Source: Rhodothermia bacterium (GTDB taxonomy: Bacteria; Bacteroidota; Rhodothermia; Balneolales; Balneolaceae). From it: a stretch of 32,000 nt of DNA. The notes beneath the pieces are model-generated. The model did not search any database, was not told where the DNA came from, and saw nothing but the letters and a program-made list of their open reading frames with translations. The stretch covers positions 519,550 through 551,549 of the forward strand of contig JAUICM010000004.1 in NCBI GenBank assembly GCA_030427885.1. Reading direction: 5' to 3'. Below are positions 4,422 to 27,100 of this stretch, piece by piece. The first letter of the stretch is position 1. Every line of letters begins with the position of its first letter. The translations under genes were made by a program, and so were the position numbers.

Positions 4422-4430
4422 GTGAGTGAG

Positions 4431-4458
4431 GAAAGGGGGGCTTCGGTCCCCCTTTTTT
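4431..4458. terminator. bidirectional rho-independent terminator
   Basis: GAAAGGGGGG-CTTCGGT-CCCCCTTTTTT: a G/C stem flanked by an A-run and a T-run, sitting between convergent genes ending at 4421 (+) and 4478 (-). Confidence 0.7.
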
Positions 4459-4477
4459 ATTTCAGGAACTCATTCAG

Positions 4478-5218: not shown

Positions 5219-5319
5219 TATTAAGTACTAATTTAATAGTACTAGAATACGATTATTTTAAAGAAAATGGAATGATGCAGTAAAACATTCAGTTAGAAGC
5301 GTGTGTAGTATTCGGGAGT

Positions 5320-6222
5320 TTGAAAAATTGTATAGAAGATATGAGTACAAGAGATCAAAATATTTTAGAAGCCGTCAGATCATTAGCGAAAGATGATGAA
5401 GCCCTTAATAAGCTTGAAGGCCTTATAGGGGACTTGTCATCAAAGGTTACTAATCTGCAGAACCAGCTGGAGTTATTGGAATCGGCAATACGCCATGACT
5501 ACGATTCGATACTCATAACTGAGCTGGATCTTGAGAAGCCCGGCCCGATCATCGTTTATGTGAACGAAGGGTTTACCAGAATGACAGGATATACAAAAGA
5601 TGAGGTTCTGGGGAAAACCCCAAGAATTCTTCAAGGTCCTAAAACAGACCGGGCTGTTCTGGATCGCCTGAAAAGAAGACTTATTGAAGGACAAGCGTTC
5701 TTTGGACATACCATCAACTATCGAAAAGATGGTTCCGAGTTTATCAATCAGTGGGACATTCATCCTTTGATGAACGAGAAGGGAGAGGTGACACACTGGG
5801 TTTCTTATCAGAGAGATGTAACTGAAAAAAGAGACTCAGCTAAGGCCTTATTCAATACTGATTTTGATGAGCTCCTGAAGCGCAAAGAGGAGTTTAAGTT
5901 AAAATTTATAAGAGAGGAAGGGTCCAAAAGCTATAGCTGTAAATATCTAAATGAGGCGTTTGAAGAGATTACGGGACTTGAGAAATCAGTGATATTAGAT
6001 AAAGGGATTGATAATGCCGTTCACACAGAAGATTTGACACTGGTGGAATCTGCACTGGAAAAAGCTTTTAATGGAAAGACTGTTACAGAAACTTTCCGGT
6101 ACCGCTCATCGTCAGGTGATTTCATCTCCGTGCTTCAGTCCTTTAAGCCTGTTTTTGATGAAGATGGAAAACAGGTGGAATCTGTTAAATCCGTTGCGAA
6201 GCTGGAACTGAAAGAAATTTAG
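5320..6222 (+). CDS. stand-alone tandem PAS protein; the first PAS is LOV-like but lacks the adduct-forming Cys
   Basis: 300-aa ORF from TTG 5320; ATG 5341 (MSTRDQ) is an alternative start. N-terminal coiled coil. LOV-like core IVYVNEGFTRMTGYTKDEVLGKTPRILQGPKTD...INYRKDGSEF...VSYQRDVTE, then a second PAS-like half. No output domain. Confidence 0.8.
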   Translation: MKNCIEDMSTRDQNILEAVRSLAKDDEALNKLEGLIGDLSSKVTNLQNQLELLESAIRHDYDSILITELDLEKPGPIIVYVNEGFTRMTGYTKDEVLGKTPRILQGPKTDRAVLDRLKRRLIEGQAFFGHTINYRKDGSEFINQWDIHPLMNEKGEVTHWVSYQRDVTEKRDSAKALFNTDFDELLKRKEEFKLKFIREEGSKSYSCKYLNEAFEEITGLEKSVILDKGIDNAVHTEDLTLVESALEKAFNGKTVTETFRYRSSSGDFISVLQSFKPVFDEDGKQVESVKSVAKLELKEI

Positions 6223-6247
6223 TTCACACCATATTAAGGAAAATTAG

Positions 6248-6273
6248 AAAGCCCAAATTATTGGGCTTTTTTT
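6248..6273 (+). terminator. rho-independent terminator
   Basis: AAAGCCCAA-ATTA-TTGGGCTTT followed by a T-run, 26 bp after the stop at 6222. Confidence 0.7.
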
Positions 6274-6294
6274 ATATCCCTTACCGGATAATTG

Positions 6295-6302
6295 TATATT
6301 TG
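6295..6302 (+). promoter_or_regulatory. candidate -7 promoter box TATATTTG (TAnnTTTG)
   Basis: Exact motif 15 bp upstream of ATG 6317. It lies inside the 13-mer AATTGTATATTTG, which also occurs at 3204-3216. Confidence 0.35.
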
Positions 6303-6316
6303 GTGAAAATTGAATT

Positions 6317-6742
6317 ATGGATATACAGGAAGTACAAGACCGCATAATCAGAGAGTTCGGACTCTTTGAAGACTGGACTGAAAAATACAAGCATATTATA
6401 AAGCTGGGAAGTAAACTCGATACTCTGCCCGAAGAAGACCATACGGAATCAAACCTGGTAAAAGGTTGCCAGAGTCAGGTATGGTTAACAGCAGATTTAG
6501 AAGGGGATAAAGTCATCTTTAAAGCAGACAGTGATGCAGCCATAACAAAAGGTTTGGTAGCATTAATGGTAACGTTTTACTCCGGGCAGTCTCCTGATAC
6601 TATAATTGGTACAAATCCTGAGTTTATAAATAAGATCGGGATGGCACAGCACCTGTCTCCTACAAGAGCAAACGGGCTGGCTTCAATGGTAAAACAGATG
6701 AAAATATACGCAATGGCTTTTAAAGCTAAATTGGCAACATAG
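6317..6742 (+). CDS. sufE: SufE-family cysteine desulfuration (sulfur acceptor) protein
   Basis: 141-aa ORF of the right size, with the SufE active-site region LVKGCQSQVWL and C-terminal SPTRANGL. Confidence 0.85.
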   Translation: MDIQEVQDRIIREFGLFEDWTEKYKHIIKLGSKLDTLPEEDHTESNLVKGCQSQVWLTADLEGDKVIFKADSDAAITKGLVALMVTFYSGQSPDTIIGTNPEFINKIGMAQHLSPTRANGLASMVKQMKIYAMAFKAKLAT

Positions 6743-13413: not shown

Positions 13414-14064
13414 CTACTCAAAGATATTGTTTTCAATAGCATATTTAACCAATCCGGCAGTATTTTTGGCTCCGATCTTTTGCAACAGATTTCTACGGTG
13501 AGCATCAACTGTTCGTACACTTATAAATAGTTTATCAGCAATTTCCTGATTAGTGTACTCATCAACGATAAGTTGAAGTACATCTTTTTCACGATCAGTG
13601 ATCTGAATGAAGGGATCAGATGCCTTTCGTTTTAGCTCGGGTTGCACCAACTCTTCCAGGATTGATTTTGTGGCTTCTTCACCAAAATAATGACTCCCGC
13701 TATGGATCTTTCTGATTGCATCGATAAGTTCTTCCCTGCTGGAACTTTTAAGGATATATCCTGAAGCACCGGCATGGATCATGCTTCTTATGTGTTGGTC
13801 TTCATCAGACATGGTCAGGGCTAGTATCTTGATTTCCGGGTGCTCTTTTTTGATCTTCATGGTTGCTTCAATGCCATTCATCACTGGCATATTGATGTCC
13901 ATTATGATAAATCCCGGGTTCTTTTCAGATACCTGCTGAATCGTTTCTTTTCCATTTGAGGCTTCCCCGATAATATGGAATCCGGGTTCAGTTTCGATCA
14001 AAGACCGAATCCCATCCCGAACGATCTTATGATCGTCGGTTATAATGATCTCAATATTATCCAT
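13414..14064 (-). CDS. NarL/LuxR-family response regulator (REC + HTH_LuxR)
   Basis: I prefer the ATG at 14064 (MDNIEIIITDDH...) over the track's 14100 start. Receiver motifs are IIMDINMPVMNG and LALT; the C-terminal part is TDREKDVLQLIVDEYTNQEIADKLFISVRTVDAHRRNLLQKIG. The 8-nt overlap ATGGATAA with the upstream kinase stop supports this start. Confidence 0.9.
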   Translation of the reverse strand: MDNIEIIITDDHKIVRDGIRSLIETEPGFHIIGEASNGKETIQQVSEKNPGFIIMDINMPVMNGIEATMKIKKEHPEIKILALTMSDEDQHIRSMIHAGASGYILKSSSREELIDAIRKIHSGSHYFGEEATKSILEELVQPELKRKASDPFIQITDREKDVLQLIVDEYTNQEIADKLFISVRTVDAHRRNLLQKIGAKNTAGLVKYAIENNIFE

Positions 14065-16138
14065 TGTCCTCCTTGGTTTGAGTTCCGGAGACAGGCACAC
14101 AAATAGTCATCATTGTGCCCCGTTCAACATTTGTTTCCAGGTCCAATATTCCACCCATAATAAAAGTTCTGGTTTTAATACCTGTAAGACCGATCCCTGG
14201 GTTATAGTCAGGCCTGCTCACATCAAATCCTTTTCCGTTATCCTCAATGGTAAGTATCAGATCCGTTCGATCGCGGATCAGCTGAATGCTTACTTTTGTG
14301 GCTTCAGCATGTTTAACAATATTATTAAAACATTCCTGTACAATACGGTAAATGTTCAACTCAATTTTCTGAGAAAATCGTTCGTCGCCAATATTGTCAT
14401 AAAAATTGAAGATAAGATCAGTGCTTTTACCAAAACTGTCTACCAGATTCTGAATACTGGTCTTGAGGCCATTGTCCTCAACCACTCTCGGCATGAGATT
14501 ATGAGATATATTCCTTGTTTCTGACATTGCCTGTTTCAGATAGTTTATCCCGTTATCGAACAGCTCCTGGCTTTTACTATCCAGAGAACGGATCTTATCC
14601 TTAATGGCATCAAGATTCATATTTGAAGCCGCAAGAAGCTGTCCCAACCCATCGTGGAGGTCATGAGCCAGCCTGCGTCGTTCTCTGGTTTCTCCCTCGA
14701 TGAAAGAAGAGAGAGCTTTTTCCTCGGCTTCTCTTTGAGCAGTTATATCTTTGAAAACGATCATACGATAATCATTTTCGAGGTATTTCATTTGCTTCCC
14801 ACTTATTTCCACAGTTAACAAGGTTCCGTCTTTTGTGATATGTTTCCACTCAAGAAGGGGGGATGCGGTGTCCTTATATTTTTGAATGGTTTCAATCACT
14901 CTGTCGTGATCTTCTTCAACAAATAAATTAAGAAGGGATAGTCCCTGGATTTCATCTTTTGAGTATCCATATAAGTCCATGGCTGCTTCATTCATTTCAA
15001 TGATCTCGTAAGTTGCAGGATCATAAATACATTTTGGAAGGGGGCTTTTCGTAAAAAGAAGTTTATACTTTTCTTCAGATTCCCGAAGCAGAGTATCTGC
15101 CTTTTTTTCTTCGGTGATATTAACCATCGCACCAACCAGACCAATAGCTTTTTTGTGTACATCCCGAATAAAATATCCTTTGTCCCATACATGAATAACA
15201 TCTCCAGCCGGGTTAATGAGCCGGTACTCATGAAACCAGTGGGTTTGATCTGAATTTCTGATCTCTTCGAAATGATCATCCAGTTCTTCAAAATCATCGG
15301 GATGGATCACTGACTTGATCCAGGTAAAATTATTACCAATATGATCTGCATCGAACCCAAAATGTGTTTGCCACCCACGGCTCCACCAGGCTTTATCATT
15401 TACCAGATCCCATTCATAGAGTACGTCGTTGGTAGACTTTGAGATATATTCGAATCGGCGCTGTTCTTTAATTAGTGCCTCTTCGGTAATCCGCTGATCG
15501 CTAACATCCAGACCAATACCTATACTTATGTTTTCATCCAGTGCGATCCGACTCCACCGTTGATGTAGTATTCTCCCATCTTTCGAAGTAACCATGTATT
15601 CATCCCAGGATCCGTCGAATTTACGTACAGCTTTTTGGGCCCGCATTAATTCCTCATTATCCTTAATGAATGTTTCGAGTACATTCACGGATTGTATTTC
15701 TTCATTGGTCCACCCCAGCTTACGTTCATATTCCTTATTTATCTTAATGGTACCGGATTCTTTATCATACTGAAGTAAAAGAACAGGAATGGAATCAAAT
15801 ATTGCCGTGAGTAAAAGATTGGTTTGCTTCACTTCCTCTTCGCTTTCCTTTCTCAATCTGAATTCGCGATTGTTCATTGAGGTATAAAATGCAAAGATCA
15901 GGATGGGGTAGAAGATCAGGACAAGAAAGTCTTCGGCTGAATCGAAAAAAGTAGTGATCTCAAGGTGTTCAAGTAAGTTGAATCCCCCTATCAGAAAAAG
16001 TACCAGACCTCCGATGATCAGAAATGAGCTATTTAAGACTCCGGTTTTATTACGACGGATCAGAAGGAGTATAACCCCGCCAAGTGCAAAGAGGCAGCCG
16101 ATAAAATTTATCAGGGGAACCAGTTTATCCATTCTCAC
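14057..16138 (-). CDS. membrane PAS sensor histidine kinase, HisKA_3 (NarX/DegS-like) type
   Basis: 693-aa ORF. 3 N-terminal TM helices, about 3 PAS modules, H-box RRLAHDLHDGLGQLL, and HATPase_c (IVQECFNNIVKHA, DNGKGF, GIGLTGI). Confidence 0.9.
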   Translation of the reverse strand: MRMDKLVPLINFIGCLFALGGVILLLIRRNKTGVLNSSFLIIGGLVLFLIGGFNLLEHLEITTFFDSAEDFLVLIFYPILIFAFYTSMNNREFRLRKESEEEVKQTNLLLTAIFDSIPVLLLQYDKESGTIKINKEYERKLGWTNEEIQSVNVLETFIKDNEELMRAQKAVRKFDGSWDEYMVTSKDGRILHQRWSRIALDENISIGIGLDVSDQRITEEALIKEQRRFEYISKSTNDVLYEWDLVNDKAWWSRGWQTHFGFDADHIGNNFTWIKSVIHPDDFEELDDHFEEIRNSDQTHWFHEYRLINPAGDVIHVWDKGYFIRDVHKKAIGLVGAMVNITEEKKADTLLRESEEKYKLLFTKSPLPKCIYDPATYEIIEMNEAAMDLYGYSKDEIQGLSLLNLFVEEDHDRVIETIQKYKDTASPLLEWKHITKDGTLLTVEISGKQMKYLENDYRMIVFKDITAQREAEEKALSSFIEGETRERRRLAHDLHDGLGQLLAASNMNLDAIKDKIRSLDSKSQELFDNGINYLKQAMSETRNISHNLMPRVVEDNGLKTSIQNLVDSFGKSTDLIFNFYDNIGDERFSQKIELNIYRIVQECFNNIVKHAEATKVSIQLIRDRTDLILTIEDNGKGFDVSRPDYNPGIGLTGIKTRTFIMGGILDLETNVERGTMMTICVPVSGTQTKEDNG

Positions 16139-16388
16139 CCCTGTAATTGAGAACGCCTAAAAAGAAAAAAATACATGCGACAGTAAATGAGAGATGTTCT
16201 AGTACGTTCATAAGTTCGTACAATAGAACTCCTTCCAGTACAGTAAAAACTTCACTCACTACCAGGGCAGAAATACACGTAAGCCAGAAGCGCGGTAATT
16301 TAAATTTGTACCGTTTTGTCAGATTAAGCAGGAACACATATAAACTCGAGCAAAGGATCAGGCTTATTACTTCCGGATATTCAAACAT
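16125..16388 (-). CDS. small 3-TM membrane protein, or a detached N-terminal part of the downstream kinase
   Basis: 87-aa hydrophobic ORF, co-directional with the kinase ORF and overlapping its start by 14 nt. It shares an NxLEHL motif with the kinase's own TM region. Confidence 0.45.
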   Translation of the reverse strand: MFEYPEVISLILCSSLYVFLLNLTKRYKFKLPRFWLTCISALVVSEVFTVLEGVLLYELMNVLEHLSFTVACIFFFLGVLNYRGENG

Positions 16389-16457: not shown

Positions 16458-16489
16458 ATAAAAAAGCCACACCGTTTTAAGGAGTGGCT
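16458..16489 (-). terminator. rho-independent terminator (minus strand)
   Basis: Minus strand reads AGCCAC-13 nt-GTGGCT followed by TTTTTTAT, about 40 nt downstream of the small ORF stop at 16527. Confidence 0.55.
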
Positions 16490-16526
16490 TGCAGAAATTC
16501 TTACTCTTTAAGTACAAGAAGCGGGA

Positions 16527-16634
16527 TTATTTCTTACCAGATTTATTTGCTTGACCAACTTTTTTCTGAGCTACAGCATTTTTAGCTACAGGTTTTGATT
16601 GGGTTTGAGCAGGCTGTTTAAATTTGTTAGCCAT
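16527..16634 (-). CDS. hypothetical 35-aa lysine-rich peptide (MANKFKQPAQTQSKPVAKNAVAQKKVGQANKSGKK)
   Basis: Found by hand translation; it is below the ORF-track length cutoff. ATG is preceded by GGAG 8 nt upstream and followed by a dedicated terminator. No family recognised. Confidence 0.35.
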   Translation of the reverse strand: MANKFKQPAQTQSKPVAKNAVAQKKVGQANKSGKK

Positions 16635-17080: not shown

Positions 17081-18910
17081 ATGTTACGGTCCCGTATAAA
17101 ATGGCTATTTGCATTATGGTTTTCAATGCAGGGAGTTTGGGTATTCGCACAGACATTACCAGGTCAATCTGTGTCTCCAGACGTGCAGGAAGAAGCCGGA
17201 AAATATGAGCGCTATTATGAAGTAGTGCTCGATAACGCATTATCTGAATATTACAAAAAGGGGACTTTCATTGTTGATGTAAAGGCCTCACTTGACAGAG
17301 TATTGGTAGCTAAGGGATATGAAGTTGTAGAAGCTGAAGAACCAGTTGTTTTAGAAAATCTTCCAGGGCTCCCATATATACCGCCAAATTTAAGAGCATC
17401 TACTCAGCAAGGGCGCGACAGTTTGAAGGCATCAGGATTTGATGCACGCTTTAGATTAACCCAGCTCAATATTAAGGTGTTGGTAGATACATCATACAGT
17501 GATGAAGACCTGGAGTTTGTGGAAGAAGCAGCTACTTTGATTGCAAATGCAGATCGTTTCAGGGGAGACATAGTTAGCGTTGAAAAGAAAGTATTTCCCC
17601 GAAGTGCCCGGGCAATTGAGCAGGATGAACAGGCTAAGAATACAAAGCCGAAGTCTGCAAATCCTCAGGTTGAACGAATCGGCCAGACAAATGACAAGGC
17701 AGCAGCTGAGGAAAATAATTTTCTCGGAGTTGATTGGAATGACCCTCGTCAGTTAACCTATGTGATCGCGATTCTAGGGGTCTTGTTTTTAGTGGCATTG
17801 CTATATGCTCTGCTTAAAAAGCCATCGAAAAAATCAGAAGACCCGCCATATCCATATCCTGTGTTTGAAGGAATGGCCCCACCTGCTAAAGAAGTTGAAA
17901 AGAAAGAGGCTACAGGACCTGATGCCAAAACACTTGCCCAGTTTGAAGAGGATAAGACCTACCTGACGAATACCTGTATCAGTCATCCAAAAATGGTTGC
18001 CAATCTGATCGATCAATGGATCGCCAGTGATGAAGAACAGGGAGTTATTCGTGCGGTAAGGAATTTTGCCAGTGTGGATGAGAAATTGATAAGTGTACTG
18101 GAACCACATATTGGTGTAGAAACGTACGAAACTATCCGCTTTGGGCTGGCCAATACTGAGCCGATTCCTCTTGAGGAAAAGATAGAAGAGGCAAGGGCCT
18201 TCAGAAGAAGTATCCAGCAAATGAAGACCGCAACAAATACGGCTGATTCAGGATCGAATCTGTTTGATTTTGTATATCAGCTTACCGACCAGCAGCTGCA
18301 ACATTTGATGAAAGAGGAATCAGATGAGATGGTTGCGATATTATTAGCTCAGATTGCCGGTGAAAGAGCTGGAGGAATTCTTCAGAAGATGGACGACGAG
18401 AAAAGGATATCGATCCTGCTGAAAATGGGTAAGATCAATAACATTCCGATCTCAGTATATAAAAAGGTAGCTGCTCATTTCTCTAATAAAGCACTGTCTG
18501 TGTCTGATATGAAATATGTTGCGGCAGATGGAATCGATTCAATTCTAACCACTATTGAAACACTGCCTCTTGCCGAGCAGGATACGTACGTCCGTTCAAT
18601 TGCCGAGCAGGATCTGGAGCTGGCCAAAAAGATCAGGAAATTCTTTATTGGCTTTGATGATCTTCCTAAAGTTAAGGATGAGTTTGTACAAAGCGCACTC
18701 GAGGAGGTACAGACAGAGACGATCATTCTTGCATTGAGAACAGCACCTGCTGCAGTTCGAGAAAAAATTCTGAGGGTTCGCCCAAAAAGGGAGCAACAGT
18801 TAATTCTTTCTGAGATCGATAACCCATCTGAGGCCTCAAAAGCTGAAGTTGAAGATGCACAGAAAGTAGTTCTGTATGCGGTTAGAAGGAAAATGAAAAC
18901 AGAGGGCTGA
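17081..18910 (+). CDS. membrane-anchored FliG-like rotor protein with an N-terminal periplasmic FliF/YscJ-like ring motif
   Basis: 609-aa ORF.
- aa 1-24: signal peptide or TM helix.
- Periplasmic part ends in RLTQLNIKVLVDTSYSDEDLEFVEEAATLIANADRFRGDIVSVEKKVF.
- aa 225-245: TM helix.
- aa ~290-609 align along their length with FliG N/M/C domains: ...MVAILLAQIAGERAGGILQKM..., DGIDSIL, ELAKKIRKFFIGFDDLPKVKDEFVQSALEEV, ILALRTAPAAVREKIL, VEDAQKVVLYAVRR. Confidence 0.8.
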   Translation: MLRSRIKWLFALWFSMQGVWVFAQTLPGQSVSPDVQEEAGKYERYYEVVLDNALSEYYKKGTFIVDVKASLDRVLVAKGYEVVEAEEPVVLENLPGLPYIPPNLRASTQQGRDSLKASGFDARFRLTQLNIKVLVDTSYSDEDLEFVEEAATLIANADRFRGDIVSVEKKVFPRSARAIEQDEQAKNTKPKSANPQVERIGQTNDKAAAEENNFLGVDWNDPRQLTYVIAILGVLFLVALLYALLKKPSKKSEDPPYPYPVFEGMAPPAKEVEKKEATGPDAKTLAQFEEDKTYLTNTCISHPKMVANLIDQWIASDEEQGVIRAVRNFASVDEKLISVLEPHIGVETYETIRFGLANTEPIPLEEKIEEARAFRRSIQQMKTATNTADSGSNLFDFVYQLTDQQLQHLMKEESDEMVAILLAQIAGERAGGILQKMDDEKRISILLKMGKINNIPISVYKKVAAHFSNKALSVSDMKYVAADGIDSILTTIETLPLAEQDTYVRSIAEQDLELAKKIRKFFIGFDDLPKVKDEFVQSALEEVQTETIILALRTAPAAVREKILRVRPKREQQLILSEIDNPSEASKAEVEDAQKVVLYAVRRKMKTEG

Positions 18911-18913
18911 TAA

Positions 18914-20017
18914 ATGAGCAGGCTATTTATCCTAATAATCACCCTCCTGTGCATAGAAACACTGGGGAGCTCAGCAGTGATTGCACAAACTCAGCCTCAA
19001 AGGCATGAGAACGGGGTAGCCTATTTGATGGATCAGATCACTGAGAGGATGAGCGAGGAATTTAATGACATTCCCGTGAACGTCCGCCGTAGCGCAGTTT
19101 ATAAGATCAATTACAGTGCGATGCGGTTTAGCCCGGAAGAAGTGGATTATATAAGGGGAGAGGTTGAATACGCTTTAAGGCAGTATGCAGGGCTTACCGT
19201 ACTATCGCCACCAGAATTGGAACCCAATGATAAGATGAAGATCATGGGGAGCGACAGTACACTCCAAATATTGAATGTCCGGGGTCGTTCACTTGCAGAT
19301 GTATCACCAGAGTTCCTGACAACGATAACTGATAAATACGGAGTTCAGGGATTAGTAGAATTAACAGTGCAAAGACGTTTTCCTGAGGGCCTGGTTTTAT
19401 TAATCCGTATGATGAATCCGAATTCCCGTGAGATCGTGTGGACCAAGAGCTTTGTTTCTAATCCAAAAGAACCCAAAGAAATTGTAGATAAAGGCCGGAC
19501 TTCAGTCGTTATTTTGGGTGCCGGAGCGTTAAAGGCAGAAAGCATTACTCAATATGATTCATCAGGAGTTGGGACAGATAGTACAATCAATAAAACGGTA
19601 CTTGATCTGCACTTAAGTTACACGTTCAGACAACCGCTGAACAAGAAGAATAGTGCGTATGTTGGTTTCAGTGCCGGGGCGCATATCCTGAAGAGCAGCG
19701 ATGCTGAAGAATTTTCAATGACTTTGGTGAAGTTTGGGGTAAACTACTACCAGGCAATCACGGCGAAGAATGAGGATATAAATGATTACCGGGTGATGTT
19801 TGTGTTTGGTGGTGAAGTGATGTTCCCACTTGGATCTAAAAGGAAGGGGGAACTATTTGTAGCAACTCCGGAGATCATGTTTAATTTGAGTAACAACCTG
19901 GGGCTTTCATTATATGGGAATGTGATTTTTGCTGGTGAAACCTTGCGACAGAGCAATGGAGATGATCTGACTTTTAACAAAATAGGCTATGGTGTTCGTG
20001 GTGTTATACGATTCTAG
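18914..20017 (+). CDS. secreted protein: periplasmic N-domain + predicted 8-stranded outer-membrane beta-barrel
   Basis: 367-aa ORF with a signal peptide. The C-terminal ~170 aa show eight amphipathic beta-strand segments ending in the OMP-type terminus GVRGVIRF. The N-domain weakly recalls the CsgG/LpoB/FlgO-like pattern. Starts 3 nt after the upstream stop. Confidence 0.65.
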   Translation: MSRLFILIITLLCIETLGSSAVIAQTQPQRHENGVAYLMDQITERMSEEFNDIPVNVRRSAVYKINYSAMRFSPEEVDYIRGEVEYALRQYAGLTVLSPPELEPNDKMKIMGSDSTLQILNVRGRSLADVSPEFLTTITDKYGVQGLVELTVQRRFPEGLVLLIRMMNPNSREIVWTKSFVSNPKEPKEIVDKGRTSVVILGAGALKAESITQYDSSGVGTDSTINKTVLDLHLSYTFRQPLNKKNSAYVGFSAGAHILKSSDAEEFSMTLVKFGVNYYQAITAKNEDINDYRVMFVFGGEVMFPLGSKRKGELFVATPEIMFNLSNNLGLSLYGNVIFAGETLRQSNGDDLTFNKIGYGVRGVIRF

Positions 20018-20624
20018 GAAAATATCGGCTATAGTTTTAGCAGCATTTATGCTGTTTTCAGGATGTAAGTCCGCTGAGCAATTGCAGCAAGAAGCAGAGG
20101 CTGCAAATAGTGCTCCCGAACAGGTTAACACTCAGCAACCGGTGCGCAGTACACAAGTTCAGCAACCAGCACCTTCACAATCTGGGTCAGGCACCGTGAC
20201 TGTTAACTATAAGAATAAAAGTTCAAGCATCAAGATCGACCTTGATCCAAATGAAGATCAGTTTTATCTGGATCTACGGGGACTTGCTCCCGAAGAGAAA
20301 GATTCCGTAGTGGTAGTGGATTCTACCATGCTGAAGAACAGGTCAACGGATATTCAAAAGCTGTTGGCAGGCTACCGAAAAGCACAGGACCTGTTCTACC
20401 TTGGTGAATATCGTCAGGCATTGGCTGAAGTAGATAAAACAATACAAATTCAGGAAACAGCTGACGCATATGCTTTAAAGGGAACAATCTTTTTTATGCT
20501 GGAAAATGTGACTGCTGCAAGAGCCAATTGGACAAAAGCTGTTCAAATGGATCCCAATATGCCGGTGCCAAGTATTCCGGAATTAGAAACTTTAATTGAT
20601 GAGATTCGGGGGGAAGAGAACTAA
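19989..20624 (+). CDS. TPR-repeat lipoprotein with Gln/Pro-rich linker
   Basis: 211-aa ORF. Lipoprotein signal MVFVVLYDSRKISAIVLAAFMLFSGC, a Q/P-rich spacer, and C-terminal TPR-like helices (YLGEYRQALAEVDKTIQI...AYALKGTIFFMLENVTAARANWTKAVQMDP). 29-nt overlap with the upstream ORF. Confidence 0.65.
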   Translation: MVFVVLYDSRKISAIVLAAFMLFSGCKSAEQLQQEAEAANSAPEQVNTQQPVRSTQVQQPAPSQSGSGTVTVNYKNKSSSIKIDLDPNEDQFYLDLRGLAPEEKDSVVVVDSTMLKNRSTDIQKLLAGYRKAQDLFYLGEYRQALAEVDKTIQIQETADAYALKGTIFFMLENVTAARANWTKAVQMDPNMPVPSIPELETLIDEIRGEEN

Positions 20625-21442
20625 TGAGGTTATCGATCACGAATTTATTAGGGGTAATTTTCAGTTTGGGTATGCTGATCTTTGGGGTTACCGAGATTAC
20701 CGGTGCAACTGATGTTTTGAATAATATCCCGGCACTTTCCGATTACCGGTTTTTGAATCTGCCCAGCTTATTTATTGTTCTCGGCGGGGTTCTGAATGCG
20801 GTATTTATTACCTATCAACCCAGATATGTAGGTAAAGCATTTGGAAGTATTTTCTTACTTTTCAGCCAGGCTAAGGCATCACACAAAACACTTTACACTG
20901 ATCTGGAAAATATACTTGAGTGGAGTGATGAGGTAAAAAAAGACCGGGTGAATGCACTCACAAAACTGGAAGATGAGTATGCGGCGGATGTTTCCGGGTA
21001 TCTTTTCTCATTGATGAGTACCAATTATTCTTCAGAAGATATCCAGAGTTTTGGCTCTAATCATATTGAAGAAGATTATTTCAGAAAGATCGTTACGGTA
21101 GATGTGCTCAGGGCGATGGGGGGTGCCGCTCCTTCATTTGGGATGTTCGGTACACTGTTCGGGCTTATAGTGATGCTGGGTGAATTGGAAAATCCATCCG
21201 GAATGGGTCCCGGACTTGCAGCCGCTTTGATCACCACACTGTATGGTATTTCACTGGCCCGCTTCATTTTTTATCCGGTCGCAGAAAAGATCAAGAATGT
21301 AGCTCAGCTTAATAAATTTCGCGAATATTTTATCCTGGAAGGAATATTGATGATCAATGACAAGAAGTCATCATTTTATATTCAGGATAAACTCACTACC
21401 TATCTGCAAAGAGATTTTAAGAAGTCTAAAGACGCAGAATAA
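20624..21442 (+). CDS. motA: MotA/PomA-family stator channel protein
   Basis: 272-aa ORF with 4 TM helices. Large loop between TM2 and TM3. APSFGMFGTLFGLI (TM3 Pro) and LAAALITTLYGISLARFIFYPVAEKI (TM4 Pro) match the MotA_ExbB core. TAATG overlap with the upstream gene. Confidence 0.85.
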   Translation: MRLSITNLLGVIFSLGMLIFGVTEITGATDVLNNIPALSDYRFLNLPSLFIVLGGVLNAVFITYQPRYVGKAFGSIFLLFSQAKASHKTLYTDLENILEWSDEVKKDRVNALTKLEDEYAADVSGYLFSLMSTNYSSEDIQSFGSNHIEEDYFRKIVTVDVLRAMGGAAPSFGMFGTLFGLIVMLGELENPSGMGPGLAAALITTLYGISLARFIFYPVAEKIKNVAQLNKFREYFILEGILMINDKKSSFYIQDKLTTYLQRDFKKSKDAE

Positions 21443-21444
21443 TA

Positions 21445-22137
21445 GTGCTATCAAGAAAAAACATAGGGCATCAGCATGCGGATGAGGAGCATGAAGAAGA
21501 CCAGGAATGGCTCCTGACCTATAGTGATATGATTACCTTGCTACTGGCTTTCTTTGCGATGCTGATCGCTGTCTCTTATGTGGATCTGAATCTTTGGGAG
21601 CAGATGAAACAAGGTCTTAGATCTGATATCAGTAAAGAGGAAAATGTAAAGACCCCGCTGGCTGAGGTTAAACAGGATCTGGATTCCTTATTGGTAGTTG
21701 AGAAAGAACAGGGACTGGTAAATATTCTTCTGGATAAAGACGGGATCAAGCTCTACTTCAACAGTAGTTATTTTTTCGATTCAGGGGAGGCCAGGCTCCT
21801 GCCAACGGGAGAAAGAATCATAGATAAGGTAACACAGGCAATGAATGCCCTGGACTTCTATAAGTTCAATGTGGATGTGGAGGGACATACTGATAATGTT
21901 CCAATAAATACACCCATTTTCCCTTCAAATTGGGAGTTATCGGTGGCAAGAGCTTCGGGAGTGGTGAAATATTTTATACAGGAAGGAATAGAAGGAGAGA
22001 GATTAAAGGCCTCAGGCTATGCCGATACAAAACCCATCGTTCCGCATCAGGATGAGCAGGGGAGAGATATTATTGAGAACAGAGCCCTTAACAGGCGTAT
22101 TGTGATCAGAATCTACTACCAGCTCGGACAGATATAA
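21445..22137 (+). CDS. motB: MotB-family stator protein (TM Asp + OmpA-like peptidoglycan-binding domain)
   Basis: 230-aa ORF with a GTG start. WLLTYSDMITLLLAFFAML carries the conserved channel Asp. C-terminal OmpA-like domain: VEGHTDNVPI...SNWELSVARASGVVKYF...GYADTKPI...NRALNRRIVIRI. Confidence 0.85.
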   Translation: MLSRKNIGHQHADEEHEEDQEWLLTYSDMITLLLAFFAMLIAVSYVDLNLWEQMKQGLRSDISKEENVKTPLAEVKQDLDSLLVVEKEQGLVNILLDKDGIKLYFNSSYFFDSGEARLLPTGERIIDKVTQAMNALDFYKFNVDVEGHTDNVPINTPIFPSNWELSVARASGVVKYFIQEGIEGERLKASGYADTKPIVPHQDEQGRDIIENRALNRRIVIRIYYQLGQI

Positions 22138-24104: not shown

Positions 24105-27100
24105 ATGACTAAAAACATTCTCCTTCCCGTCTTTTCTATTCTTCTTCTCTTCGCAGCATGTACCAAACAGGAAACGATCAGTGTTTCTTCAACGCAGGGG
24201 TATGAGGAATATATAACGGGATTTACCTCAGGAGAGATCAGTTCAGGAAGTGAGATCGCGGTTTCATTTTCTAATGACATAGAAACTGAAAGTCAGCTAA
24301 CACAGAATTTATTCCGTTTCAATCCGGGAATAACAGGCGAAGCCGAATGGGTAAACGAGCGCACGGTAGTGTTTTACCCAGCGCAAAAGCTGAAAAACGG
24401 ACAGGAGTATATTGCAGAGTTTACTTTAAGTAAGGTGATGGATGTTCCTGATGAGAAAAAGAAATTTTCTTTCAGATTTTCAACCATAAGGCAGGATATG
24501 GAAGTTGAAATTAATGGGCTGGAACTGGTTCAGGTGAATCAGGGGTTGCAGCGTATTACAGGAACTGTTTTTACAGCTGATAAAGTATCAGAAGCTGATA
24601 TCAAACGAATAATGAAAGCTGTCCATGAGGATGAGAATCTGAACATCAGCTGGATTCAGAATAACCCACAAACACGTCACGATTTCCAGATCTCAGGTAT
24701 CACACGAATGCAGAATTCCTCGAGTGTTGAAATAAGCTGGGATGGTTCGCCCATTGGCTCAGATGCCGAAGGTGAACAGGAAATAGAAATACCTGCAATT
24801 GGAAATTTTGAACTTATAGGTACAAAAATATTCAGAGATCAGAATCCGAGGATTGAGCTTATTTTTTCTGATCCATTGGACGCATCCCAAAACCTGGCTG
24901 GTCTGGTGCGCCTGGAAAGTGGTGGGTCACTAAATTTCATCGTCAATGAAAATAAATTAATCATTAACCCGGGGAATACCAGGAACAGGCCCGAAAATCT
25001 CATCATTGATGAAGCCGTTAGAAATAGCAAAGGCAAACGCCTTGGAGTAGAATATCAGCGGGAAATACGATTTTCGCAGCCGGCTCCACAGGTTGAATTA
25101 CTGGGTAAAGGAATGATCATACCCCGGTCAAACAATTTATACCTGCCATTTAAAGCGGTAAGCCTGGGAGCAGTCGATGTTCAGGTGGTACGGATATTCG
25201 AAAATAACATCGGGCAGTTTTTGCAGGATCAGAATCTGGATGGAACACAGTCCTGGAATATTCGCAGGGTAGGGCGTGCAGTGTACAATGGAACCATTCC
25301 GCTCTCCGCTCTGGGAAATGTAGATCCGGGCGAGTGGAATAATTTCGCGCTCGATCTTTCTGAAATCATAGAACCGCAACCGGGTGCTATCTATAAAGTG
25401 GAGATCGGTTTCCGTCAGCAACACGCGGTGTATCCCTGTGGAGATAACAGCATTATCAGTAATACCAATCTCAGTTCAAGAAACTGGATGCTGAGTGCGG
25501 ATGAAGAAGCCGGATACTGGAACAGGTACGATGACTATTATTATCCATCTGGATATAATTGGAGAGATCGGGATGATCCTTGCACACTTTCCTATTACAT
25601 GAGCGATAAAAGAAGATCCCGTAATGTGCTTGCCTCAGATCTCGGGATCATTGCAAAACGAGGGGAAACCGGTGAAGTACAGGTATTTGTTACCGATTTG
25701 AAAGTTGCGGAACCAAGACCGGGAGTCACCATTACGGCATATGACTTTCAACAGCAGGAGATGGTTGCCACAAGCACCGATGCTTCAGGTAAAGCTGTAT
25801 TTGATGTAGAAAGAGATCCGTTTTATCTGGTGGCCAGTCGTGGAGATCAAAAAGGATACCTCAAAATGGAGGATGGGTCATCGCTGTCTCTGAGTGAGTT
25901 TGATGTTTCAGGTGCCAGAATAGAAAACGGACTGAAGGGATTTCTGTATGGTGAACGGGGAGTCTGGAGACCGGGCGATAGCTTATTTGTGACACTGATC
26001 CTTGAAGATAAAAATGAGGTTCTGCCCGATGATCATCCGGTCTCTTTTGAATTAAGAGATCCATCGGGACAGCTAAGCGACCGCCAGACCTTTACCTCTT
26101 CATTGAACGGATTCTATGTATACAAAGGCAAAACAGAACGACAGGCTAAAACAGGGAACTGGAGGTTAACAGCACGGGTGGGAGGCCAGAGTTTCACAAA
26201 GGTCCTGAAAATAGAAAGCGTAAAACCAAACAGACTGAAGGTTGAACTTGACCTGGCAAACGATGAGATCAATGCAAGAACACGTTTAATGGAAGCCACG
26301 CTAAGCTCACGCTGGCTGCACGGGGCTACAGCACGTGACCTTAAGGCTGATGTGGAAATGAGTCTGACGCCCTCAGAGCCAGAATTTGAGAACTTCCGGG
26401 ATTTCAGTTTTAATGACGAAACCGTTTCATTTTCATCGTCTCCGGAAAAGATATTTGAAGGCAAGCTGGATGGAAATGGTGAAGCAGAATTTGACCATCG
26501 CTTTGCAGCACTGGATGAAGGCCCCGGAAGACTCATGGTGAATTTGAACCTGAGAGTATTCGAGCCATCGGGAAGCTTCAGTGTTGGCCGGGCAGGTACT
26601 TTCTACTATCCGTTCAAAACCCTGGTCGGTGTTAAAGCACCAGCCGTAGATAACTGGAACTATCAAAACTGGTTATCCCGTAATGAGACCTATGCATATG
26701 AAGTAGTTACAACTGATGAAAAAGGAGAACCGGTTGCATTCAAACAATTGGAATATGAGCTCTATAACATCCGGTGGAGATGGTGGTGGGAGCGAAGTCG
26801 TGAGAACCTGAGTAATTTCTTTGAACGCCGGAATTCCACAAAAATACTCAGTGGTAAAGTAACCACTGGTTCCGATGGAACGAACAAAATTCAGATCAAA
26901 CTTCCCGAAGGTGCTGATGGGGGACGGTATCTGCTGAGAGTGAAAGATCCTGTTGGGCGACATTCCAGCAGTACTATTGTGTATTATCGCTGGGGACGAG
27001 GCCGCAACTCAGCAGTAAGTCCGGCGCAGCTTACCTTCACTTCAGATAAAGAAAAATATAATGTGGATGAGGAAGTCACCCTGAAGATCCCGAGCAGTGC

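What the first reader, a model, noticed from the sequence alone, without database searches (positions are those of the whole stretch)
17081..22137. Orphan rotor-plus-stator cluster: membrane-anchored FliG-like protein, OM barrel, TPR lipoprotein, MotA and MotB, with no other flagellar genes nearby
Five same-strand ORFs are packed as one unit. The junctions are a 3-nt gap, a 29-nt overlap, a TAATG overlap and a 2-nt gap.

They encode:
1. A protein whose cytoplasmic two-thirds reads as FliG, the flagellar rotor protein that MotA pushes on.
2. A signal-peptide protein ending in an OMP-type beta-barrel.
3. A TPR lipoprotein.
4. MotA.
5. MotB with an OmpA-like peptidoglycan anchor.

Nothing else flagellar (fliE/F/H/I/M/N, flg, flh, flagellin) occurs in the 32 kb. 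The flanks are two-component genes and a beta-lactamase-family hydrolase.

The known families of MotAB-like 5:2 ion-driven motors are MotAB, ExbBD, TolQR, AglRQS, GldLM and ZorAB. None has a dedicated membrane-tethered FliG partner encoded next to outer-membrane and periplasmic components. The composition suggests a self-contained, envelope-spanning, ion-powered rotor/stator machine that is not a flagellum. I do not recognise a characterised system like this. Its output (OM remodelling, secretion, surface motility or signalling) is unknown.
Basis: partly seen in the sequence, partly recalled or inferred. Interest (0 to 1): 0.88.

Follow-up and report, generated by a model that had tools for sequence, protein, structure and literature searches.

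The report
Flagellum-free FliF-FliG rotor with MotAB stator
A marine Balneolaceae bacterium carries a conserved five-gene module that pairs the core rotor and stator of the flagellar motor with two outer-envelope proteins and no other flagellar genes, which looks like an undescribed ion-driven machine that is not a flagellum.

Summary
Five tightly packed same-strand genes lie at 17081-22137.

- **Gene 1** is more than a "membrane-anchored FliG". It is a natural fusion: signal/TM1, a periplasmic domain homologous to the FliF MS-ring RBM3/collar region, a TM helix, then a full-length FliG-like cytoplasmic part.
- **Gene 2** has a TolB-N/LpoB/FlgT-like periplasmic domain and an 8-stranded outer-membrane barrel ending in Phe.
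- **Gene 3** is a TPR lipoprotein.
- **Genes 4 and 5** are a flagellar-type (PomA/MotP-like) MotA and a MotB with the channel Asp, a plug and an OmpA-like anchor.

The same gene order recurs in more than 50 genomes: Balneolaceae, Fibrobacteria, KSB1 and unclassified MAGs, down to 25% identity. The flanks are always different and non-flagellar. All five genes are under strong purifying selection (dN/dS 0.01-0.18).

The FliG torque-helix Arg is kept in 62 of 62 relatives. The FliM-binding EHPQR motif and FliF RBM1/2 are absent.

*Gracilimonas tropica*, a non-motile species reported to lack flagellar assembly genes, has the module.

I found no paper describing it. Function is inferred, not shown. 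I could not check directly whether this genome has a flagellar regulon.

The parts
17081..18910 (+). Gene 1: FliF(S-ring)-TM-FliG fusion protein, 609 aa, the putative rotor subunit
   Evidence: ORF. Pfam FliG_C and FliG_M. PDB FliG matches 8e-17 for the single sequence and 1.5e-43 for the family profile. The family has 108 clusters at 50% identity with E<1e-30 and the same ~600-aa architecture.
17081..17152 (+). Residues 1-24: signal peptide or N-terminal TM1 (MLRSRIKWLFALWFSMQGVWVFAQ)
   Evidence: Read directly from the sequence. All relatives have an equivalent hydrophobic N-terminus ending in AQ. This parallels TM1 of FliF (inference).
17153..17752 (+). Residues 25-224: periplasmic domain homologous to the FliF RBM3/beta-collar (S-ring). 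It contains the family-invariant motifs LPGLP (94-98), VLVDxSY (133-139) and RGD...FP (161-173), followed by a low-complexity linker.
   Evidence: PF08345 YscJ_FliF_C hits in relatives: L064 4.1e-6 (above the gathering score), L044 2.6e-4, and 20 of 62 family members with best 7e-8. For the window's own N-domain model (low pLDDT, 57.6), the top 18 Foldseek PDB hits are all FliF MS-ring/S-ring structures (5e-7 to 2e-4). P95, D163 and P173 are invariant in 62 of 62.
17753..17815 (+). Residues 225-245: transmembrane helix (LTYVIAILGVLFLVALLYALL), equivalent to FliF TM2
   Evidence: Read from the sequence. Helix 222-245 has the highest pLDDT of the N-domain model. The family profile gives a weak match to Salmonella FliF residues 455-560, which cover TM2 and the C-terminal tail (E 0.0058).
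17927..18265 (+). Residues 283-395: divergent FliG_N-like region
   Evidence: Aligns with Aquifex full-length FliG from residue 32 (3hjl_A, query 312-607). In the variant L063 protein the equivalent region hits Pfam FliG_N over profile positions 3-101 of 104 (7.7e-8). Not detected by Pfam in the window protein itself.
18290..18508 (+). Residues 404-476: FliG middle domain. The EHPQ motif is replaced by ESDE; the Gly-Gly hinge is replaced by DG (483-484).
   Evidence: Pfam FliG_M 4.7e-8. Alignment to Salmonella FliG. Residue distributions in the family.
18596..18898 (+). Residues 506-606: FliG C-terminal (torque) domain. R570 corresponds to E. coli/Salmonella R281, E578 to D289, S577 to D288 and R553 to K264.
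   Evidence: Pfam FliG_C 1.4e-21. Residue mapping from the HMMER alignment with 8umd_B. The R281 equivalent is R in 55 and K in 7 of 62 relatives.
18914..20017 (+). Gene 2: outer-membrane protein, 367 aa. It has a signal peptide, a periplasmic alpha/beta domain (about residues 35-181) with a TolB-N/LpoB/GNA1162/FlgT-like fold, and an 8-stranded beta-barrel (residues 196-367) ending in ...VIRF.
   Evidence: No Pfam or NCBIfam family. The 103 homologues found with the single-sequence search are named, where named, only as Balneolaceae/Balneola/Bacteroidota/'bacterium'; weak tblastn matches also occur at the same position in Fibrobacteria and KSB1 loci. AF2 model pLDDT 78.6. Foldseek hits: LpoB C-domain TMt 0.63; Ail, OmpX, NspA, OmpW and OmpA barrels TMt 0.5-0.57; TolB; FlgT. 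C-terminal Phe in 55 of 57 orthologues.
19989..20624 (+). Gene 3: TPR lipoprotein, 211 aa. Lipobox Cys26, a Q/P-rich linker, then a C-terminal TPR domain (about residues 115-192).
   Evidence: Pfam TPR_1 2.1e-6, TPR_2 1.3e-5, TPR_16 1.9e-4. A lipobox Cys is present in nearly all orthologues, and the overlap with gene 2 is conserved.
20624..21442 (+). Gene 4: MotA/PomA-type stator A subunit, 272 aa, with 4 TM helices and a large cytoplasmic loop
   Evidence: Pfam MotA_ExbB 3.6e-18. NCBIfam flagellar motor protein/MotP/PomA 1e-32 to 2e-29, against TolQ/ExbB at 2e-3 or weaker. The best solved relative is Vibrio PomA, 6e-23. The equivalents of PomA P151 and P199 are invariant in 58 of 58; the R88 equivalent is K/R in Balneolaceae.
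21445..22137 (+). Gene 5: MotB-type stator B subunit, 230 aa. It has a TM helix with the channel Asp (D28 in LTYSDM), a plug and an OmpA-like peptidoglycan-binding domain.
   Evidence: Pfam MotB_plug 5.9e-15 and OmpA 6.3e-17. NCBIfam MotD/MotS/MotB 4e-49 to 3e-31, below equivalog cut-offs. PDB MotB/PomB 1e-25 to 4e-18. The W-L-x-[TS]-Y-[SA]-D-M motif is conserved in all lineages.

Best explanation
The five genes encode a self-contained, non-flagellar rotor-stator machine built from the torque-generating core of the flagellar motor.

**Rotor (protein 1).** It is a natural FliF-FliG fusion. Its periplasmic FliF RBM3/collar-like domain would oligomerise into an S-ring-like ring in the inner membrane. 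This would place a ring of FliG M+C domains on the cytoplasmic face.

**Stator (MotA and MotB).** They would form flagellar-type 5:2 ion channels. MotB's OmpA-like domain would anchor them to peptidoglycan. Ion flow (H+ or Na+, undetermined) would turn the MotA pentamer, which would push on the FliG_C torque helix (conserved Arg570) and rotate the fusion-protein ring.

**Partners (proteins 2 and 3).** The outer-membrane barrel protein, with its TolB-N/FlgT-like periplasmic domain, and the TPR lipoprotein are the obligate periplasmic/outer-membrane partners. They either scaffold and activate the stators, as MotX/MotY/FlgT or PflA/PflB do in Vibrio and Campylobacter, or they receive the mechanical output at the outer membrane.

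**Shown:** domain homologies, conserved residues, conserved synteny, purifying selection, and absence of flagellar neighbours.

**Inferred:** ring formation, rotation, physical contact between the inner-membrane and outer-membrane components, and the biological output.
For: - **Anatomy and junctions:**
- **FliG M+C:**
- **FliF RBM3/collar homology of the periplasmic domain:** (PF08345 in 20 of 62 relatives, best 7e-8; top 18 fold hits are all FliF S-ring).
- **Weak FliF TM2/C-tail match:**
- **Torque-helix Arg (R281 equivalent):** R or K in 62 of 62.
- **Stator is of flagellar type:** PomA/MotP-like, not TolQ/ExbB/ZorA-like. It keeps the two channel prolines, the MotB Asp and the plug.
- **Covalent FliF-FliG fusions are compatible with ring assembly in real flagellar proteins:** fusion chains in PDB 8z4d and FliF-FliG fusion rings in PMC6079021.
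- **Five-gene order conserved** in about 55 loci from Balneolaceae, Fibrobacteria, KSB1 and unclassified MAGs at 25-79% identity, with unrelated non-flagellar flanks.
- **dN/dS 0.01-0.18** for all five genes in eight independent pairs.
- **Outer-membrane features:** beta-signal Phe and lipobox Cys conserved across lineages.
- **Present in a non-motile species:** *G. tropica* DSM 19535 has the module and is reported to lack flagellar assembly genes.
Against: - There is no experimental or structural evidence for ring formation or rotation.
- The N-domain model is low confidence (pLDDT 57.6), and the window protein itself does not reach significance against PF08345.
- Of the canonical FliG charged residues, only the R281 equivalent is family-wide. 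The K264 and D288 equivalents are not conserved and the D289 equivalent is acidic in only 24 of 62. The MotA E98/E96 equivalent is S/D/N in Balneolaceae.
- No rod or axle-like component is encoded, so what a rotating ring would turn is unknown.
- I could not scan the whole genome of this organism for a canonical flagellar regulon. Some Balneolaceae (Aliifodinibius/Fodinibius) do carry near-complete flagellar gene sets.
Confidence: 0.6

Rival explanations
1. A non-rotary, Tol-Pal-like envelope system. The MotAB-type motor supplies ion-motive energy, and the FliF-FliG protein, the TolB-N-like outer-membrane protein and the TPR lipoprotein act as a trans-envelope force transducer or tether. The role could be outer-membrane stabilisation or constriction at division, in lineages that lack a classical Tol-Pal system. 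No continuously rotating ring is involved.
For: - The parts list parallels Tol-Pal: a 5:2 motor, a TolB-N-like fold, a TPR lipoprotein like CpoB and an OmpA-like PG binder.
- Bacteroidetes are reported to lack identifiable tol-pal loci (PMC12204202).
- In the divergent variant cluster in L063, MotB carries an extra SPOR (septal peptidoglycan-binding) domain.
Against: - MotA is clearly of the flagellar torque-generating type, with TolQ/ExbB models scoring only 2e-3 to 5e-2.
- There is no TolA/TonB-like protein.
- Retention of a full FliG with the conserved torque-helix Arg, and of the ring-building FliF domain, is hard to explain without a rotor-stator interface.
- Protein 2 lacks the TolB beta-propeller.
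Confidence: 0.2
2. These are simply the fliG/motA/motB genes of an ordinary flagellum whose remaining genes are scattered elsewhere in the genome, or a second rotor/stator set that plugs into a canonical flagellar basal body.
For: - Some sources annotate relatives as 'flagellar motor switch protein FliG'.
- Balneola vulgaris was described as flagellated, and some Balneolaceae carry near-complete flagellar gene sets.
- I could not scan this genome.
Against: - Protein 1 has a periplasmic FliF-like domain and a TM helix fused to FliG.
- It lacks the EHPQR FliM-binding motif and has no detectable FliF RBM1/2 (no PF01514 match), the region that houses the export gate in canonical FliF (established knowledge).
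- No flagellar gene lies within the 32-kb window or within +/-10 kb in the three related loci whose flanks were scanned (L044, L064, L063).
- The module always travels with a lineage-specific OM barrel protein and a TPR lipoprotein.
- It is present in non-motile *G. tropica*, reported to lack flagellar assembly genes.
Confidence: 0.05
3. A decaying evolutionary relic of a lost flagellum with no current function.
For: PMC9909488 proposes gradual loss of flagellar genes in Balneolaceae.
Against: - All five genes are intact in more than 50 genomes.
- Gene order is kept at 25% identity across phyla.
- dN/dS is 0.01-0.18.
- Residues are invariant in both the periplasmic and cytoplasmic domains.
- Two partner genes are not flagellar at all.
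Confidence: 0.02
4. A Zorya-like or other MotAB-based anti-phage defence system.
For: MotB matches ZorB models in PADLOC (1.8e-20). This is expected for any MotB.
Against: - There is no ZorA, ZorC or ZorD match, and MotA does not hit ZorA.
- The locus is a stable chromosomal module with partly syntenic neighbourhoods, not a variable defence island.
- Its partners are envelope proteins.
Confidence: 0.02

Closest known systems
Bacterial flagellar motor core: FliF MS-ring, FliG ring and the MotAB/PomAB stator
   Same: - Homologous domains: FliF RBM3/collar, FliG M and C (plus a divergent N), MotA, and MotB with plug and OmpA-like anchor.
- The key torque-helix Arg, the MotA channel prolines and the MotB Asp are conserved.
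- The stator is closest to PomA/MotP-type flagellar stators.
   Different: - FliF and FliG are one polypeptide.
- FliF RBM1/RBM2 (the export-gate housing) are absent, and the EHPQR FliM-binding motif is absent.
- No FliM/N, type III export apparatus, rod, hook, filament, or L/P-ring genes lie in the module or its flanks.
- Instead there are two obligate, lineage-specific partners: an OM barrel protein and a TPR lipoprotein.
Engineered or spontaneous FliF-FliG full-length fusions of Salmonella/Vibrio (e.g. PDB 8z4d/8z4g chains; PMC6079021)
   Same: Covalent FliF-FliG linkage that still assembles into rings. It shows that 1:1 fusion is mechanically compatible with an MS/C-ring.
   Different: Those are laboratory constructs of complete FliF in flagellated cells. 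Here the fusion is natural, ancient and widespread, and FliF is reduced to the RBM3-like domain and its TM helices.
Periplasmic stator scaffolds of high-torque flagellar motors: Vibrio T-ring/H-ring (MotX, MotY, FlgT) and Campylobacter PflA/PflB
   Same: TPR/Sel1-type periplasmic proteins and a TolB-N-like fold protein accompany MotB/PomB. FlgT (PDB 3w1e) is among the fold hits of protein 2. That TPR proteins PflA/PflB and the Sel1-repeat protein MotX scaffold stators is from my own knowledge of the literature.
   Different: There is no detectable sequence homology. Protein 2 is itself an integral OM barrel. There is no flagellar basal body to decorate. The scaffold role here is an analogy, not a tested function.
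Tol-Pal system (TolQRA, TolB, Pal, CpoB)
   Same: A 5:2 ion-driven motor combined with a TolB-N-like fold, a TPR lipoprotein and an OmpA-like PG-binding domain. It is envelope-spanning by logic.
   Different: MotA is flagellar-type, not TolQ. There is no TolA and no TolB propeller. A FliG/FliF rotor protein is present.
Other non-flagellar 5:2 motors: GldLM (T9SS/gliding), AglRQS-Glt, ExbBD-TonB, ZorAB
   Same: They use MotAB-superfamily motors to energise outer-envelope processes. GldLM and the present module both occur in the FCB group.
   Different: None uses FliG or FliF. There is no ZorA/C/D match. TolQ/ExbB models score marginally. GldL/GldM/AglR were not specifically tested.
Orphan motAB + fliG genes noted in non-flagellated Elusimicrobiota (bioRxiv 10.1101/2022.07.08.499144)
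   Same: A passing report of fliG and motAB homologues in genomes without structural flagellar genes, with the role called unclear.
   Different: No architecture, synteny or partner genes are described. Whether those genes belong to this family was not tested.

Membership tests
FliG family (flagellar rotor/switch protein) | FliG middle and C-terminal domains (Pfam PF14841, PF01706) above gathering score | tested here: met
   FliG_C scores 77.3 bits (cut-off 23.3) and FliG_M 33.6 bits (cut-off 25). FliG_C is found in 62 of 62 and FliG_M in 60 of 62 relatives. PDB FliG matches reach 1.5e-43 with the family profile.
FliG family (flagellar rotor/switch protein) | Conserved charged torque-helix residues (E. 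coli K264, R281, D288, D289, R297) | tested here: inconclusive
   The R281 equivalent is kept in all relatives (R 55, K 7 of 62). The D289 equivalent is E in the window and acidic in 24 of 62. The K264, D288 and R297 equivalents are not conserved family-wide.
FliG family (flagellar rotor/switch protein) | EHPQR motif of FliG_M that binds FliM; soluble ~330-aa protein; equivalog score (TIGR00207) | tested here: not met
   EHPQ is replaced by ESDE and is not conserved in the family. The protein is 609 aa with a TM helix and a periplasmic domain. TIGR00207 scores 87 bits against a cut-off of 226.7.
FliF family (MS-ring protein) | RBM3/beta-collar region (Pfam PF08345 YscJ_FliF_C) flanked by two TM segments | tested here: met
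   PF08345 is matched by 20 of 62 relatives (best 7e-8). L064 scores 27.7 bits, above the cut-off of 23.8. For the window protein, support comes from fold only: the top 18 PDB hits are FliF S-ring, from a low-confidence model. The topology of N-terminal hydrophobic segment, periplasmic domain and TM is read from the sequence.
FliF family (MS-ring protein) | RBM1 and RBM2 (Pfam PF01514 YscJ_FliF) that house the type III export gate | tested here: not met
   No PF01514 match in the window protein or among the 25 families most often matched by the 62 relatives. The periplasmic domain is only about 150 structured residues.
MotA/PomA flagellar stator A subunit | MotA_ExbB domain, four TM helices, a long TM2-TM3 cytoplasmic loop and two conserved channel prolines | tested here: met
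   PF01618 3.6e-18. Flagellar NCBIfam models score 1e-32 to 2e-29, below equivalog cut-offs. PomA is the best PDB hit at 6e-23. The P151 and P199 equivalents are invariant.
MotA/PomA flagellar stator A subunit | Charged loop residues that pair with FliG (E. coli R90/E98; PomA R88/K89/E96/E97) | tested here: inconclusive
   The R88 equivalent is K/R in Balneolaceae and Q/R in distant members. The E96 equivalent is S/D/N in Balneolaceae and E/D in 14 of 16 distant members. A nearby Glu116 is conserved in Balneolaceae.
MotB/PomB flagellar stator B subunit | Single TM helix with the essential Asp, a plug helix and a C-terminal OmpA-like PG-binding domain | tested here: met
   MotB_plug 5.9e-15 and OmpA 6.3e-17. 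D28 lies in LTYSDM, and the motif is conserved in all lineages.
Complete bacterial flagellum | Co-occurring export apparatus, rod, hook, filament and FliM/N genes | tested here: not met
   None in the 32-kb window. None within +/-10 kb of the module in the three related loci whose flanks were scanned (L044, L064, L063). Whole-genome presence could not be tested. The literature reports no flagellar assembly genes in *G. tropica*, which carries the module.
Tol-Pal / Ton systems | TolQ/ExbB and TolR/ExbD equivalogs, a TolA/TonB transducer and TolB with a beta-propeller | tested here: not met
   TolQ and ExbB models score only 2e-3 to 5e-2. No TolA/TonB domain was found. Protein 2 has a TolB-N-like fold but no propeller.
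Zorya anti-phage system | ZorA, ZorB plus ZorC/D (or ZorE/F/G) | tested here: not met
   Only generic ZorB (MotB) matches were found. There is no ZorA, ZorC or ZorD.

The most novel reading that the evidence does not exclude
This is a previously unrecognised class of bacterial rotary nanomachine: a minimal FliF-FliG ring driven by MotAB-type stators that works without any flagellum. It would couple ion-motive force to an outer-membrane barrel protein and a TPR lipoprotein, across much of the FCB superphylum (Balneolaceae, Fibrobacteria, KSB1, Calditrichaceae, some Chitinophagales). Its output would be something other than swimming, for example outer-membrane or cell-surface dynamics, division-site envelope remodelling or surface motility. 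It may be either a reduced descendant or a surviving cousin of the pre-flagellar rotor-stator core.
Probability: 0.45. Interest if true: 0.95.

Novelty: new variant of a known kind. Interest (0 to 1): 0.85.

Why it matters
FliG and FliF are known only as parts of the flagellum. Every other 5:2 ion-driven motor family (ExbBD, TolQR, AglRQS, GldLM, ZorAB) acts on non-FliG partners.

A conserved, selected module that keeps just the torque-generating interface (stator, FliG and the FliF S-ring) and couples it to outer-membrane proteins would be a second biological use of the flagellar rotor.

It would also give a five-gene minimal system for studying torque generation and ring assembly without about 40 other flagellar genes.

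It bears directly on the long-standing question of how the flagellar rotary core arose relative to the type III export apparatus. It would assign a function to genes currently annotated as "FliG C-terminal domain-containing protein", "hypothetical protein" or "flagellar motor switch protein" in abundant marine Balneolaceae. It may also explain reports of "incomplete flagellar pathways" in non-motile FCB bacteria.

Tried and rejected
**Searches that failed or added nothing**
- The look-up of encoding contigs for the window's own protein (P0001): not on record.
- The search for related loci with the broad alignments A4 and A5 failed for lack of a conserved stretch. It succeeded with the narrower A6. 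That biases the taxonomic list towards Balneolaceae-like motifs.
- The third homology search, with the family profile, added no new taxa because candidates are word-seeded on close relatives.
- The sigma-70 promoter/terminator scan was uninformative: fewer promoter-like hits than in shuffles.
- Rfam and tRNA scans of the window were empty.
- Seven literature searches found no description of this module. The only related remark concerns orphan fliG/motAB in Elusimicrobiota.

**Hypotheses rejected**
- Zorya or another defence system.
- Relic or pseudogene status.
- The OMP-TolB-like proteins of PMC12204202, which have beta-propellers that protein 2 lacks.

**Corrections to first impressions**
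- The Pfam FliG_N hit at residues 416-490 of the window protein is a cross-match of the armadillo repeat within the M domain. It is not evidence for an N domain.
- P0324 (331 aa) first looked like a canonical FliG. It carries the family-specific motifs and is probably a split or truncated member.

Full report
**1. Observation**

The window has five + strand ORFs:

| Gene | Coordinates | Length |
|---|---|---|
| 1 | 17081-18910 | 609 aa |
| 2 | 18914-20017 | 367 aa |
| 3 | 19989-20624 | 211 aa |
| 4 | 20624-21442 | 272 aa |
| 5 | 21445-22137 | 230 aa |

Pfam and NCBIfam scans give:
- Protein 1: FliG_C 1.4e-21 and FliG_M 4.7e-8.
- Protein 4: MotA_ExbB 3.6e-18. The best NCBIfam models are flagellar motor protein/MotP/PomA (1e-32 to 2e-29). 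TolQ and ExbB score only 2e-3 to 5e-2.
- Protein 5: MotB_plug 5.9e-15 and OmpA 6.3e-17.
- Protein 3: TPR repeats, with a lipobox Cys.
- Protein 2: no family.

Pfam scans of the 17 other large ORFs of the window found no flagellar gene. They include methylmalonyl-CoA mutase/MeaB, acyl-CoA dehydrogenase, PAS proteins, SufE, histidine kinases, response regulators, an ECF sigma factor, a beta-lactamase-family protein, alpha-2-macroglobulin and PBP1C.

**2. What protein 1 really is**

*FliG part.* Alignment with solved FliG structures covers residues about 312-607. It maps Salmonella/E. coli R281 to R570, D289 to E578, D288 to S577 and K264 to R553. The FliM-binding EHPQ motif is ESDE here, and the Gly-Gly hinge is DG. 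A family profile matches FliG M+C in the PDB at 1.5e-43.

*Periplasmic part.* The N-terminal third consists of a signal peptide or TM1, about 200 periplasmic residues, then TM helix 225-245. It is not an arbitrary anchor.
- In distant relatives it matches Pfam PF08345 (YscJ_FliF_C, the FliF M-ring C-terminal periplasmic region): L064 4.1e-6 (above the gathering score) and L044 2.6e-4.
- Among 62 diverse family members, 20 match it, with best E 7e-8.
- An AlphaFold model of the window's own N-domain is low confidence (pLDDT 57.6). Even so, its top 18 Foldseek hits in the PDB are all FliF MS-ring RBM3/collar (S-ring) structures, at 5e-7 to 2e-4.
- The family profile also weakly matches Salmonella FliF residues 455-560, which cover TM2 and the FliG-binding tail (E 0.0058).

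*Conclusion.* The most conserved residues of the whole family are periplasmic: LPGLP at 94-98, RGD at 161-163 and FP at 172-173. P95, D163 and P173 are invariant in 62 sequences that share only 25% mean identity. Protein 1 is therefore a natural FliF(RBM3)-TM-FliG fusion. It lacks FliF RBM1/RBM2; in canonical FliF, RBM2 houses the export gate.

**3. The partners**

*Protein 2.* It has no Pfam family. With the single-sequence search its homologues were, where a source names them, all Balneolaceae/Balneola, Bacteroidota or unclassified "bacterium".
- Its AlphaFold model (pLDDT 78.6) has a periplasmic alpha/beta domain and an 8-stranded beta-barrel.
- Foldseek matches the first domain to the LpoB C-domain (TMt 0.63), GNA1162, the TolB N-domain and the Vibrio flagellar H-ring protein FlgT.
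- It matches the barrel to Ail, OmpX, NspA, OmpW and OmpA.
- The protein ends in Phe in 55 of 57 orthologues, the classical OMP beta-signal.

*Protein 3.* It is a lipoprotein with a disordered linker and a C-terminal TPR domain. The lipobox Cys is present across lineages.

*MotA and MotB.*
- MotA's closest solved relative is Vibrio PomA (6e-23).
- The equivalents of PomA P151 and P199 (E. coli P173 and P222) are invariant.
- The R88 equivalent is K/R in Balneolaceae.
- The E96 equivalent is E/D in 14 of 16 distant members but S/D/N in Balneolaceae, where a nearby Glu116 is conserved.
- MotB has the channel Asp (D28), the plug and the PG-binding domain.

**4. Distribution, synteny and selection**

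*Family size and host.* The window protein is 100% identical to a public protein on a 552-kb contig (source listing NCBI and Logan). Its relatives are named Balneolaceae. An exhaustive search of 1.84 billion representatives found 108 clusters (at 50% identity) with E<1e-30. Nearly all are about 600 aa and align end to end at 22-65% identity.

*Genomic loci.* A scan of GTDB species genomes returned 65 loci:
- many Balneolaceae, including the cultured *Gracilimonas tropica* DSM 19535 and Balneola sp. EhC07;
- about 15 Fibrobacteria/Fibrobacterales MAGs;
- Calditrichaceae, a KSB1 MAG, a Chitinophagales MAG and unclassified bacteria.

*Gene order.* tblastn with the five window proteins shows the order fusion-barrel-TPR-MotA-MotB in essentially every locus whose contig is long enough. 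This includes Fibrobacteria (28-32% identity) and KSB1 (26%). The flanks differ and are non-flagellar in the window and in each related locus whose neighbours were examined.

*Selection.* dN/dS in eight independent close pairs is 0.01-0.18 for all five genes. The module is therefore a cohesive, functional unit and not a relic.

*Variant.* One cluster in a Balneola MAG (L063) lacks the barrel gene. Its MotB carries an extra SPOR domain, and its fusion protein shows a clear FliG_N hit.

**5. Flagellar or not?**

Arguments against an ordinary flagellar role:
- the fused FliF-FliG architecture;
- loss of RBM1/2 and of the EHPQR motif;
- constant association with two non-flagellar envelope proteins;
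- no flagellar neighbours in the window or in the related loci whose flanks were scanned;
- presence in *G. tropica* DSM 19535 (L025), described as non-motile and reported by PMC9909488 to lack flagellar assembly genes, as are Balneola and other genera.

The same paper lists a near-complete flagellar KO set, with its own fliF, fliG and motAB, for the Aliifodinibius group. No genome named Aliifodinibius or Fodinibius appeared in my scan, although absence from a pattern-based scan is weak evidence.

I could not scan the window's own genome. That remains the main gap.

**6. Mechanism**

*Best supported.* An ion-driven MotA5B2 stator, anchored to peptidoglycan, pushes on the FliG_C torque helix of a ring of FliF-FliG fusion subunits. 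The R281 equivalent in that helix is conserved in 62 of 62 relatives. The subunits would be assembled through the RBM3-like ring-building domain.

Laboratory FliF-FliG fusions assemble rings (PDB 8z4d; PMC6079021), so a 1:1 covalent rotor is plausible.

The outer-membrane barrel/TolB-N-like protein and the TPR lipoprotein could play one of two roles:
- scaffold and activate the stators, by analogy with MotX/MotY/FlgT and PflA/PflB (the role of those proteins is from my own knowledge);
- act as the output end at the outer membrane.

Ring formation, rotation, the contacts between the inner-membrane and outer-membrane parts, the coupling ion and the biological output are all inferred.

*Main rival.* A Tol-Pal-like, possibly division-associated, envelope force transducer without sustained rotation. 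Three things suggest it:
- the TolB-N fold, TPR lipoprotein and OmpA-like parts list;
- the SPOR-bearing variant;
- the reported lack of classical tol-pal loci in Bacteroidetes.

The retention of a complete torque interface argues against it.

**7. Comparison with known systems and novelty**

The parts are members of the FliG, FliF (RBM3 only), MotA and MotB families. The assembly is not a flagellum, not Tol-Pal/Ton, not GldLM/Agl and not Zorya.

Public annotations of relatives are "hypothetical protein", "FliG C-terminal domain-containing protein" or "flagellar motor switch protein FliG".

Seven full-text literature searches found no description of the module. A recent survey of MotAB diversity does not mention Bacteroidota-type FliG-linked stators. 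The nearest remark is that non-flagellated Elusimicrobiota carry fliG and motAB homologues of unclear role.

I rate it a new variant of a known kind: the flagellar rotor-stator core redeployed without a flagellum. There is a substantial chance that functionally it is a categorically new rotary envelope machine.

**8. Verdict**

- Its interpretation is supported and refined: protein 1 is a FliF-FliG fusion, and protein 2 has a TolB-N/FlgT-like domain plus a barrel.
- Interest is high (0.85). A specialist would not expect FliF/FliG outside a flagellum. The module is small, widespread in abundant marine bacteria and present in cultured strains, so its function and its bearing on flagellar motor origins are directly testable.

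Noticed in passing
L063:9926-14879 (Balneola sp. MAG OZ254085.1): A divergent variant of the module (25% identity). The FliF-FliG fusion has a clear Pfam FliG_N hit. It is followed by a small 181-aa protein, MotA, and a 578-aa MotB carrying an extra SPOR (septal peptidoglycan-binding) domain. There is no barrel gene. Upstream lie a DUF4402 protein and a 994-aa CarboxypepD_reg/TPR protein. This hints at a division-site or surface-fibre link for at least one subfamily.
   Followed up: partly
protein P0324 (331 aa, from the representative library): A soluble, FliG-length protein that carries the family-specific motifs and aligns with window protein residues 283-606 (29% identity, 1e-40). It may be a split form, in which the FliF-like and FliG-like halves are separate genes, or a truncated gene call.
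   Followed up: partly
window 24105-29636 and 29646-32000 (+): A 1843-aa bacterial alpha-2-macroglobulin (lipoprotein-like N-terminus) immediately followed by a PBP1C-type penicillin-binding protein (Transgly, Transpeptidase, BiPBP_C). This is the known A2M-PBP1C periplasmic defence/repair gene pair.
   Followed up: no
window 16125-16388 (-) and 14057-16138 (-): An 87-aa multi-TM ORF overlaps by 14 nt the start of the 693-aa PAS histidine kinase. Both N-terminal membrane regions contain a similar LEHL motif. This may be a split or frameshifted sensor domain, or a duplicated membrane module.
   Followed up: no
window 16527-16634 (-): A 35-aa highly basic ORF (MANKFKQPAQTQSKPVAKNAVAQKKVGQANKSGKK) sits in the 690-bp intergenic region upstream of the module. 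By eye, a GC-rich hairpin (about 16470-16492) lies just downstream of it. No Rfam family matches the region.
   Followed up: no
window 27-6742 versus L001:4866-9739: The upstream block MM-CoA mutase, MeaB, PAS protein and SufE is syntenic with the 58%-identical locus L001, where SufE directly precedes the module. In the window about 10 kb has been inserted between SufE and the module. It holds a hybrid kinase, FMN-binding protein, GNAT, an ECF sigma with DUF6596, and two kinases with a LuxR-type regulator. The adjacent two-component genes are therefore not part of the module.
   Followed up: partly
literature: bioRxiv 10.1101/2022.07.08.499144: Non-flagellated (magnetotactic and free-living) Elusimicrobiota are reported to carry fliG and motAB homologues without structural flagellar genes, with the role called unclear. 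Related orphan rotor-stator modules may exist outside the FCB group.
   Followed up: no
literature: PMC9909488 (Balneolaceae comparative genomics): The Aliifodinibius group carries a flagellar pathway that the authors call incomplete, yet the cells are non-motile. Balneola vulgaris was described as flagellated (PMC5167729), while Balneola genomes are said to lack flagellar assembly genes. The motility status of this family is inconsistent and worth re-examining in light of this module.
   Followed up: partly
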